Below, piece after piece: positions 7,214 through 62,781 of a stretch of DNA of 64,000 nt. Below the pieces are notes generated by a model. That model had not been told where the DNA came from. It made no database searches and saw only the letters and a program-made list of their open reading frames with translations. The stretch lies in NCBI GenBank assembly GCA_051362555.1, contig CM120642.1:25358001-25422000 (forward strand), in the 5' to 3' direction. Position 1 is the stretch's first letter. Each line of letters opens with the position of its first letter. The DNA comes from Lingula anatina (lineage: Eukaryota; Animalia; Brachiopoda). The translations under genes and the position numbers were made by a program.

Positions 7214-10200
7214 TTAATCGTCCCACTCATCGTCCTCTACGCCCTCGGCAAGGTCCTGAGGCAGAGGCACCCCTTGTTTATCTTCTAGCTTGCTGCCCAT
7301 TGCAGTGAGCAACTGAAAGATATTATGGCATTTGTTAGGATGGACAGAAATTATAACACCATTGAAAAATGAATTTCTCAACTTGTAATTCAAATAAAAA
7401 TATCATGTGCTGAACGGCTGTCAGTTTGTTCAAAAAGTTGATAAAAAATTTAATTAAATAATAATTTTTAATGCTTGCCTTATTTTTTCACATAAAATAA
7501 AGTCTTTTAAAAACTAAACTAAACAAACCTCTTCCTTCTTTTGCTCATCTGTCTTGTAAGTAGTTGCATTGTAGCTTTCAAATTTTTTCGGTTTTGGTGC
7601 CTCTGGTTTTGATTTACTCACTGAAAAGAGATGTTAACATATTTTTGTTAAAATTATCTTATCACTATTTCAAGTTGTTTTTTTTTATGTCATCAATGAT
7701 ACCAAATCATAAAGCTGTCTGAACTTACTTTCCTTGGATGTACTGAAACATTATTTTCCCACTCGCTTTTTTCAAACAATAAAGATCTCAATTAGCCTTG
7801 AATTTTCAATATTTACACATTTCTGACCTAATAAGATTTTTTATCCAAATAACAAAAACAATAACAATGTCTCTTCAACCAATACAAGAATACAATAGAA
7901 ATATCCTCCTTGCTTGGATTAAATATGATAACAAACTTTATTGTTACTTGTATGGAACACAAGGCAATAAATAATACAACAAACAACCATTATGGACTGC
8001 TCAAAATGGATGTCAATACTCACATGGTTCCATGTCAGGAGGTCTTAGACTGATAGTTCTGGGCACCCTGTCCTCTCCTCTAAACCACTCCTCAGCAGTC
8101 AGACATGGCTCCCAAGTCACTCTGGTATCAGGAAAGAGATCATCCTGGAAAAACTGGGGCTGAAATTGTCAATTATGATTGATTATAATCAGTTCTAAGT
8201 TTTTGATAACATATAGCACTGTAATTTTTCATTTTTTATGTTTTTTTTATATTTCATAAACCTTTAAAATTATTTAAATAATATGAAGAAGAATTTCATC
8301 AGCTGTTTCATGTTATAAGAATACAGTTACTGTTACAGTAGTAATCTTTTCTTGTATCAATAATACTGAAATTATTTACCTATAATATTTCAAAGTCTAG
8401 AAGATGCTCTAGATAGACATTGAAACATTAGATGTAAACAATTTCAATGTGAACTGCTGATTTAAGAAAAATGACTTTATTTTCTTTTAATTACTGAACT
8501 TAATTCTTCTAGAAACTGTTTTCCTATCCCACATTTCCAATATCTTACACTCATATCCGGTTGTTAAAAATTAGAAGGGCCTTTTTGACATCTGATCATT
8601 TGTAACAATATTTCTTTAAATCTAAAAATCATTTTAATATGCAAACCTAATAAAAAGAAAATAATAAAAAAAAAAAAAACAGAAACTTACTTTCACTCTA
8701 TGAAGCCTGATCATTTGTAAGGATATTTCTTTAAATCTAAAAATCATTTTAATATGTACACCTAATAATAATAATAATATTAATAATAACAAAACAAAAA
8801 AAAATTACCTTCACTCTAGGCACAGTAAATGATACAGGTTCCACAGTGGCCCCAGTGAACCTGAGAGCCTTGGCAAACTCCACCTCTCTCACATTTATCT
8901 CAGATTTTGGCAAAAAAGCCAGGGCCTGATGCCTTCCCTCTGGCCTGTAGTCTGAGAGCTGGAACAGGTGAGGCTCATCCTCACTCACTTCTAGTGCATG
9001 GACAACACTGTCACCCTAAGAGATGATGAATGAAAGTAAATATTTCGGATAAAATGACATTGTGTTATTTTAGAAACTGTTAGCTGCAAAATAAATTTTT
9101 TAAAGTTCTGTTGTGTGTAAATGCATGAATGAAAGTTGGGTAAAAAGGGAAAAAAGTGTGTGTCATCTCCAAAATTCTGAGTGGAATAATGGTACTCAAC
9201 TTAGTTGTGAATAGGAAATGGAGTAGAGTCCAATGTCTCTCAGCACAGTGTTTCATTTATTTCAATTTAAGAAATGGTAAAATGTGTTTCAGGTTCAAAG
9301 GGAATTACTGATAGGTGAAGAATATGATGAAGTTATAACTGCTAGTAGACCTATCAAACTGATTATTTTACAAAATAACTGTACAGTTTTTCCTACCCTT
9401 CCAGTTAGGAAGATTGTGGAAGACCCCTCATCATAATTCATCACGAGGATAGATGGCGTTGTTTCATAATCTACTATGTTCAAAGGCCCTGCAGCAAGAT
9501 CACTGGTGTCATACAAAGATACTATCCTTGTGTTCTGCCTGATGAATATTTGAAATAAAATACATGTTTATTTATTTATTTATTTATTTATTTATTTATT
9601 TATTTATAACCATTTTTAAAAGATGAAATGGAAGAAAATGAAATACATAAAAATTAAACAGCATATTAAATTATTCAATATTTTCAAACATGTCAGGTCA
9701 ATTTCTATAATCTTTTTTGACATTTCTAATTACTTAAATGTCTTTTATTATTTGTCATCAAGACAATTACTGTACCTAAACATGGAAAAAGAATAATTAC
9801 TCATTATTAATTAACAATAAATATGAAAACAATATCCAACATCCACCCCATCCATCCCCCCCCCCCCCCCCCCCATAGAAATAAGAAAGCCGACTCACGT
9901 GTTAAACCCTGACACTGCTAAGTATTTGTCCTGACATGCCCAGCACACCCGGGCGCCCCTGTGGCCTGCTGGCCCAGGACCCTCCTGAAGTGTCAAGATA
10001 AACATTTAGTATATATATATATCTAAGGACACACACACACACACACACACACACACACACACATGCACATGAAGTGTGAAGATAAGTTGGTTATCTGAGG
10101 TAACATGCATGCACACACTATTCCATCTATTTATAGACATTTGATGGTTACCAACAGATGAATTAATTTCAGCAACAGATTTTTAAAAAATGTAGGCATT

Positions 10201-62781: not shown

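What the first reader, a model, noticed from the sequence alone, without database searches (positions are those of the whole stretch)
8592..62180. Recurrent tandem duplications centred on splice sites: arrays of decoy acceptors and donors
Seen: at least eight local duplications straddle an exon-intron boundary: the CORO7 donor at 8809, the FRY donor at 32899, and FRY acceptors at 38305, 45314, 50473, 51721, 54599 and 62138. Outside transposons and microsatellites, most of the longer tandem duplications I could find are of this type, although splice junctions are a small share of the sequence. Copies range from near-identical to decayed, so the process looks ongoing. Most decoys I translated lead into a stop codon within a few codons. 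Inference: either a boundary-targeted mutational mechanism (splicing- or R-loop-coupled slippage or repair), or selection for these arrays as splicing tuners, NMD switches or raw material for new microexons. This is my best candidate for an undescribed system here, but I cannot verify novelty without a literature search.
Basis: partly seen in the sequence, partly recalled or inferred. Interest (0 to 1): 0.8.

Follow-up and report, generated by a model that had tools for sequence, protein, structure and literature searches.

The report
"Mirage" splice-site repeats in a brachiopod
Eight short stretches that span exon borders in two genes of a lamp shell are copied into the neighbouring intron; the few RNA reads at two of them use the true splice site, and the copies are likely harmless, decaying examples of a repeat type already named "mirage" in lancelets.

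Summary
All eight junction-spanning duplications are real, in FRY and CORO7 of the brachiopod Lingula (100% protein match). They match the amphioxus "mirage" repeats and the human F7 intron-7 repeat, and this scan has noted the same kind on other DNA many times. An unbiased scan gave 11 local duplications; 7 span a splice site against 2.9 expected (P=0.0075). That is weaker than it looks: introns are short, the window was picked for the pattern, and slower decay of exon-anchored copies (simulated 1.4-1.8-fold) moves P to 0.03-0.06. FRY genes of two other animals carry the same repeats (4 of 11 against 2.4 expected, P=0.20). Decoys mostly score as strong as the true sites, yet 9 reads at each of two acceptors join the true site. 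Exon-derived parts show no coding constraint, and the stops after decoys come no sooner than in random intron. DNA contigs from other runs hold three of the duplications, so they are not assembly errors. Best reading: tolerated by-products of ordinary local duplication. Junction-targeted mutation is not excluded (about 20%) and needs a genome-wide test.

The parts
8592..8818 (-). CORO7 donor duplication, 2 copies, unit about 115-118 nt (about 10 nt exon end plus about 100 nt intron); true donor at 8808/8809, decoy at 8690/8691 with GT kept
32876..33184 (+). FRY donor array: true donor after 32899, five decayed copies (boundaries 32944, 33016, 33066, 33105, 33155), 4 of 5 keep GT
38235..38311 (+). 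FRY acceptor duplication, weakest case: about 23 matching nt, decoy AG ends at 38244, true exon starts at 38305, AT-rich spacer between
   Evidence: below the score-18 cut
44933..45359 (+). FRY acceptor array, 90-nt unit (44 intron + 46 exon), four decoy AGs (44948, 45037, 45127, 45223) before the true exon start 45314; outermost copy most diverged
   Evidence: contig of run X1 identical over 44715-45064
50383..50496 (+). FRY acceptor duplication, offset 87; 24-nt exon-derived decoy (50386-50409) followed by a GT; true exon start 50473
   Evidence: 9 RNA reads join 50011 to 50473; contig of X7 covers 50353-50818
51442..51749 (+). FRY acceptor duplication, unit about 138 nt (29 exon); decoy AG ends at 51582 and has gained a stop in its first codon; true exon start 51721
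   Evidence: X1 contig 50820-51874 without gaps, X7 contig 51586-51913
54519..54604 (+). FRY acceptor duplication, 40-nt unit (34 intron + 6 exon); decoy AG ends at 54558; true exon start 54599
   Evidence: 9 RNA reads leave 52220 into the true exon (loose end at 52222)
61961..62185 (+). FRY acceptor array, 60-nt unit (12-15 intron + 48 exon); decoy AGs end at 62017 and 62077, plus an older exon-part remnant at 61961-61999; true exon start 62138
19440..62784 (+). Host gene FRY (furry homologue), 60 exons by hand annotation, 2987 aa open frame; first (untranslated) exon approximate
   Evidence: exon 31320-31703 100% identical to Lingula anatina furry-like protein; five junctions seen in RNA
7214..19050 (-).
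12094..12152 (.). Control: 29-nt intronic duplication that does not span a splice site
37530..37568 (.). Control: 18-nt intronic duplication that does not span a splice site
59036..60626 (.). Control: two intronic repeat clusters (159-nt tandem 59036-59462; 180-330 nt spaced copies 59532-60626) more than 500 nt from any site

Best explanation
These are tandem copies of exon-intron borders of the 'mirage' kind, likely made by ordinary local duplication and likely kept because they do no harm, not because they do a job. Shown: each unit holds one splice site plus a cut-off piece of its exon, the extra copies all lie on the intron side, the exon and reading frame stay whole, and the copies decay without regard to codon position. 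Inferred: (1) slippage or unequal exchange duplicates 40-140 nt anywhere; (2) copies inside an exon or holding a whole exon are purged, leaving purely intronic and one-junction copies; (3) decoys stay silent because only the last acceptor or first donor is paired with the other end of a complete exon (exon definition; established for donors in human F7, assumed here); (4) one-junction pairs stay recognisable longer because one partner is a conserved exon and deletions cannot run into it, which with short introns and the choice of window gives the apparent excess.
For: Same anatomy as amphioxus mirages and F7. Junction position in the unit is scattered: exon parts of 6, 7, 10, about 24, 24, 29, 46 and 48 nt. 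Distinct changes in exon-derived parts fall 17/9/9 on codon positions 1/2/3 and three arrays gained stops there (FRY arrays only). Stop distance equals random intron. Decoys mostly score like true sites on a matrix from the window's other sites, yet 9 reads at 50473 and 9 at 54599 use the true site and no decoy joint was listed. Haplotypes differ by several 23-239 nt intron events in 7.9 kb, so introns turn over fast. Simulated survival advantage 1.4-1.8-fold. Exon parts differ less than intron parts, 21 of 184 against 82 of 423 (P=0.018). Two other animals: 4 of 11 against 2.4, P=0.20.
Against: The simulated advantage does not remove the whole excess: P stays 0.028-0.064; the fitted odds factor is 6 (95% interval 1.7-25) for the window and 3.7 (1.5-9.2) with the two other loci. 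The exon/intron difference loses significance without the 45314 array, whose intron part was misaligned by a 6-nt insertion (19 of 138 against 72 of 379, P=0.19), and exon extents were chosen by best match. RNA depth was under 10, only 2 of 8 arrays were informative, 5 joints and 207 loose ends were not shown, and decoy products would be degraded. Post hoc oddities: nearest decoy at a multiple of 3 in 6 of 8 (P=0.02; 8 of 12 with other loci, P=0.019).
Confidence: 0.65

Rival explanations
1. Duplications arise more often at splice junctions, because splicing-coupled pausing, R-loops or repair there promote slippage; the products are still functionless.
For: 7 of 11 against 2.9; 11 of 22 against 5.3 with two other loci, P=0.005; simulated passive survival explains only 1.4-1.8-fold. 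In L039 and L049 four of the seven non-spanning clusters lie within 33 nt of a site. PMC3087553 calls the generating mechanism unclear.
Against: The window was chosen for the pattern, and L039 and L049 were chosen after I saw repeats at their exon ends; alone they give P=0.20, and three more non-spanning or microsatellite-like clusters in L025 and L034 were left out of that count. No fixed breakpoint geometry. No donor/acceptor bias (6 of 8, P=0.29). The AG|GT bias (4 of 6 acceptors against 20 of 88, P=0.022) did not repeat (0 of 3; pooled P=0.10). No test of R-loops was possible.
Confidence: 0.2
2. The arrays are selected splicing devices: decoy use feeds NMD, tunes expression, or gives in-frame microexons.
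For: 15 of 16 decoys keep AG or GT and most score like true sites. The 50386-50409 decoy is a 24-nt in-frame block followed by a good donor (score 7.2). Multiples of 3 are over-represented. PMC3087553 and PMC2812944 propose such repeats as raw material for new introns.
Against: With exon parts differing at only about 11% of sites, most two-letter signals survive by chance. The 50386 acceptor scores only 0.6 and the 9 reads skip it. No coding constraint; every array meets a stop, so the frame is irrelevant; stop distance is random. The arrays in L039 and L049 sit at other FRY junctions than in Lingula, and the 45314 region differs between haplotypes.
Confidence: 0.07
3. The arrays are assembly artefacts.
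For: PMC3087553 notes one mirage that was mis-assembled in a draft. No long read across an array was seen. Five arrays were not checked against DNA runs.
Against: Copies differ from each other by 9-18%. Contigs of run X1 match 44715-45064 with 0 differences and 50820-51874 without gaps; run X7, of another study and with other alleles, covers the 50473 and 51721 pairs. X1 may be the window's source, X7 cannot be for these alleles.
Confidence: 0.02

Closest known systems
Amphioxus 'mirage' minisatellites (Adh3, globins BflGb6 and BflGb9, troponin C, PGBD5). Passages read in PMC3087553 and PMC3902484; the founding paper (Canestro 2002, PMC117041) was not held and is known to me only through these two.
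   Same: Tandem copies of an intron/exon boundary inside the intron, at donors and acceptors; units of 10-160 nt there, 40-142 here; most copies keep AG or GT; splicing appears unaffected; two-copy and many-copy forms; outermost copy most diverged.
   Different: A brachiopod, not a cephalochordate; 8 cases in two neighbouring genes (4.5% of 176 sites); mostly low copy number and more decayed; somatic instability untested here.
Human F7 intron-7 37-bp VNTR (PMC1557585; abstract and discussion read)
   Same: First unit spans the exon-intron boundary; identical pseudo-donors are functional but unused, the most upstream being chosen. Matches the FRY 32899 and CORO7 8809 layout.
   Different: One regular polymorphic repeat tested in minigenes; here copies are irregular, six of eight are acceptors, and donor use was not tested.
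Internal tandem repeats at exon-intron boundaries in human duplicated genes (PMC2812944, passages) and intron gain by tandem duplication (titles only)
   Same: Minisatellite-size units across exon borders that could seed new introns or exons.
   Different: There the repeats change the spliced product; here no new intron or exon was seen in use.

Membership tests
Mirage repeats | Tandem duplication whose unit spans an intron/exon boundary, extra copies in the intron | tested here: met
   8 of 8
Mirage repeats | Both donors and acceptors can be duplicated | tested here: met
   2 donors, 6 acceptors; 1 donor and 3 acceptors in L039 and L049
Mirage repeats | Minisatellite-size unit (10-160 nt) with high identity between copies (81-100% in BflGb6) | tested here: met
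   Units 40-142 nt; 82-91% for the four that Tandem Repeats Finder reports; 3 of 8 have three or more copies
Mirage repeats | Many but not all copies keep AG or GT | tested here: met
   15 of 16 decoys
Mirage repeats | Regular splicing is not disturbed | tested here: inconclusive
Mirage repeats | Length differs between haplotypes | tested here: inconclusive
   A second haplotype in X1 and X7 joins 44816 to 45056 (skips 239, letters between not known), which fits fewer or different copies; contigs cannot count units
Mirage repeats | Inner copies homogenised, border copy left out | tested here: inconclusive
   45314 array: outermost copy has 5 changes in 46 nt, the others 0, 3 and 2; one array only, no tree built
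Mirage repeats | Somatic length instability (reported for Adh3) | not testable with these tools
   Needs single-animal long reads or PCR
Poison-exon or NMD switch | Measurable, regulated use of the alternative site and conservation across species | tested here: inconclusive
   No decoy joint listed at low depth; arrays in two other animals lie at other junctions; no NMD-blocked data
Tandem exon duplication or coding microexon | Duplicated exon part under coding constraint, open frame | tested here: not met
   Changes 17/9/9 by codon position, stops gained in three arrays, only partial exons copied

The most novel reading that the evidence does not exclude
Splice junctions are true hotspots of short tandem duplication across marine invertebrates, several-fold above what survival bias gives, through a splicing- or transcription-coupled mutational process; mirages would then be a general, still active source of new splice sites, not an amphioxus oddity.
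Probability: 0.2. Interest if true: 0.65.

Novelty: new member of a known kind. Interest (0 to 1): 0.25.

Why it matters
As it stands it extends a little-studied repeat type to brachiopods and gives natural cases where a decoy acceptor as strong as the true one is passed over, useful for studying how 3' splice sites are chosen. My nine paper searches listed no brachiopod report and no genome-wide test of enrichment, and the amphioxus paper calls the mechanism unclear. If a proper test showed a mutational hotspot at junctions, it would bear on how new introns and exons arise.

Tried and rejected
Whole-genome test: no genome is held, so statistics rest on one window and two other loci. Per-position test: 6 of 176 sites against 134 of 2500 intron positions at score 30; rejected as a test because most intron hits are the junction arrays themselves. 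Recursive-splicing rescue at AG|GT acceptors: 4 of 6 in the window, 0 of 3 elsewhere, and 40-60 nt spacing with poor donors; rejected. In-frame tolerance as reason for multiples of 3: all such arrays hold stops; left unexplained, probably chance. Copying from spliced RNA: rejected, units hold intron and exon together. Other animals: 27 of 53 fetched loci had four or more matches and were scanned; 23 had no duplication within the matched span; only L039 and L049 were annotated and counted. No RNA holder was listed by the run index; raw-read runs of the same species label were laid instead. PMC117041 and PMC2791625 were not held. PMC10078293 passages did not bear on the case. Supplements of PMC3087553 (mirage alignments and trees) were not opened and may bear on the homogenisation row. 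Earlier scan notes for this genome: none.

Full report
Setting. The window is AT-rich animal DNA. I built gene models by hand from the sequence and checked them by frame: FRY on + with 60 exons and 2987 open codons, a CORO7-like gene on - with 26 exons and 946 codons, and UFM1, giving 176 splice sites and 12,290 exonic bases. One FRY exon is 100% identical to a protein named furry-like of Lingula anatina, so the organism is that brachiopod or its closest kin. The names CORO7 and UFM1 are recalled, not searched. RNA confirmed four FRY joints directly and a fifth as a loose end. No whole genome is held.

Observation. Self-alignment and repeat scans find all eight duplications. Each unit holds one splice site with 6-48 nt of exon, and every extra copy is on the intron side. 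Three are arrays (32899, 45314, 62138), five are pairs. Of 16 decoys 15 keep AG or GT, and on a matrix built from the window's other sites most score as high as the true site; the exceptions are the 50386 acceptor and two of the five 32899 donors. Use of any decoy would meet a stop after 1-23 codons, median 12 over the arrays, the same as from random intron positions (median 11, n=4104).

Is it more than chance? An unbiased scan with microsatellites masked gave 11 clusters at score 18 or more, against 0-1 in shuffles. Seven span a site (six in that scan, the CORO7 pair by gapped alignment), four do not; the 38305 pair is below the cut. The fair null places each unit at random and drops placements inside an exon or over a whole exon or intron. 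It expects 2.9 of 11; P=0.0075; odds factor 6, interval 1.7-25. Adding six weak non-spanning clusters and the 38305 pair gives 8 of 18 against 3.8, P=0.017. A simulation in which the true exon is conserved and deletions cannot enter it makes junction pairs last 1.4-1.8 times longer; with that weight P is 0.03-0.06. The window was also singled out for this pattern. So the excess is probably real but modest, and its size is poorly fixed.

Other animals. A scan of metagenome contigs gave 53 FRY-like loci; 27 with four or more matches were scanned and 4 held duplications within the matched span. L049 (65% identical to Lingula FRY, 75% to a snail protein) has a five-copy acceptor array and a donor array; L039 (57%) has an acceptor pair and an acceptor triplet. 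They lie at other junctions than in Lingula. Counted the same way, 4 of 11 clusters span a site against 2.4 expected (P=0.20); pooled 11 of 22 against 5.3 (P=0.005, factor 3.7, interval 1.5-9.2). These two loci were picked, and three non-spanning or microsatellite-like clusters in L025 and L034 were not counted, so the pooled figure is an upper view.

Reads. Two RNA and two DNA runs were laid on 44400-52300. DNA: one haplotype of X1 matches the window without a difference over 44715-45064, and a 1055-nt contig covers the 51721 pair without gaps; X7, another study with other alleles, covers the 50473 and 51721 pairs. A second haplotype in both runs joins 44816 to 45056, so the 45314 array region differs between haplotypes, though contigs cannot count units. 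Several other intron stretches of 23-164 nt are missing or replaced between haplotypes. The genome paper gives 1.6% heterozygosity (PMC4595640, passages). RNA: 9 reads join 50011 to the true acceptor 50473 and 9 run from 52220 into the true exon at 54599; no joint to a decoy was listed. Depth was under 10, joints need 3 reads to be listed, 5 joints and 207 loose ends were not shown, and nothing was shown for 45314 or 51721, so minor decoy use is not excluded.

Decay. Distinct changes in exon-derived parts of the seven FRY cases fall 17, 9 and 9 on codon positions 1, 2 and 3, and three arrays gained stops there: no coding constraint. Exon parts differ from the true copy at 21 of 184 sites and intron parts at 82 of 423 (P=0.018), as expected if one partner is conserved, but this falls to P=0.19 without the 45314 array. 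Two post hoc oddities: GT-starting exons at 4 of 6 duplicated acceptors against 20 of 88 overall (P=0.022), not repeated elsewhere (0 of 3); and nearest-decoy distances that are multiples of 3 in 6 of 8 (8 of 12 with the other loci, P=0.019), which I cannot explain since all such arrays hold stops.

Mechanism. Shown: anatomy, intact frames, decay without coding constraint, presence in independent DNA, use of the true site at two acceptors. Inferred: origin by slippage or unequal exchange; removal of copies that break exons; silence of decoys through exon definition, for which F7 gives experimental support on the donor side (PMC1557585, abstract and discussion); longer visibility of exon-anchored pairs. 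I put this at 0.65, junction-targeted mutation at 0.2, a selected splicing role at 0.07, artefact at 0.02.

Known kind. Earlier notes of this scan pointed me to the term 'mirage' and to F7, and list many such cases on other DNA; these are unchecked AI notes and I use them only as leads. [quoted passage not shown] The founding paper was not held. Four defining features were met here, three were inconclusive, one could not be tested, none failed. Nine searches of an open-access library listed no brachiopod case and no genome-wide enrichment test; subscription papers are mostly outside it.

Verdict. Observation confirmed; a new member of a known kind; interest 0.25. The open point worth a follow-up is whether junctions are true hotspots of duplication, which a genome-wide, age-binned test would settle.

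Noticed in passing
window 46964-48635: A 1.7-kb element with short terminal inverted repeats and a 7-nt flanking direct repeat sits about 10 nt before the acceptor of the FRY exon at 48648. It is high-copy (contig depth thousands-fold) and absent from the second haplotype in runs X1 and X7 (joint 46939 to 48644), so the acceptor's upstream tract differs between alleles. Family not identified.
   Followed up: partly
window 39098-39109, 53315-53332, 58451-58483: Three short in-frame blocks (12, 18, 33 nt) with AG before and a good donor after, in long FRY introns: candidate alternative microexons. The 9 reads leaving 52220 skip the 53315 one.
   Followed up: partly
window 44400-52300: Haplotypes differ strongly: most laid reads and contigs are 90-95% alike, with several 23-239 nt intron differences; possibly very polymorphic populations or cryptic species under one label.
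   Followed up: no
window 1237-1407 (-): First exon of a fourth gene, head to head with UFM1: hydrophobic start like a signal peptide, then an acidic stretch. Not identified; its donor was not counted among the 176 sites.
   Followed up: no
window 18840-19502: CORO7 and FRY start head to head within about 400 nt, which suggests a shared two-way promoter; UFM1 and the gene at 1407 likewise.
   Followed up: no
window 59036-60626: A 159-nt tandem repeat and 180-330 nt spaced copies in the 3.2-kb FRY intron, perhaps part of a mobile element; counted as non-junction controls.
   Followed up: no
L039 2003-2388, 5482-5609, 8240-8397; L049 1793-1858: Repeats that do not span a splice site but start or end 1-33 nt from one, hinting that repeats gather near exons in general.
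   Followed up: partly
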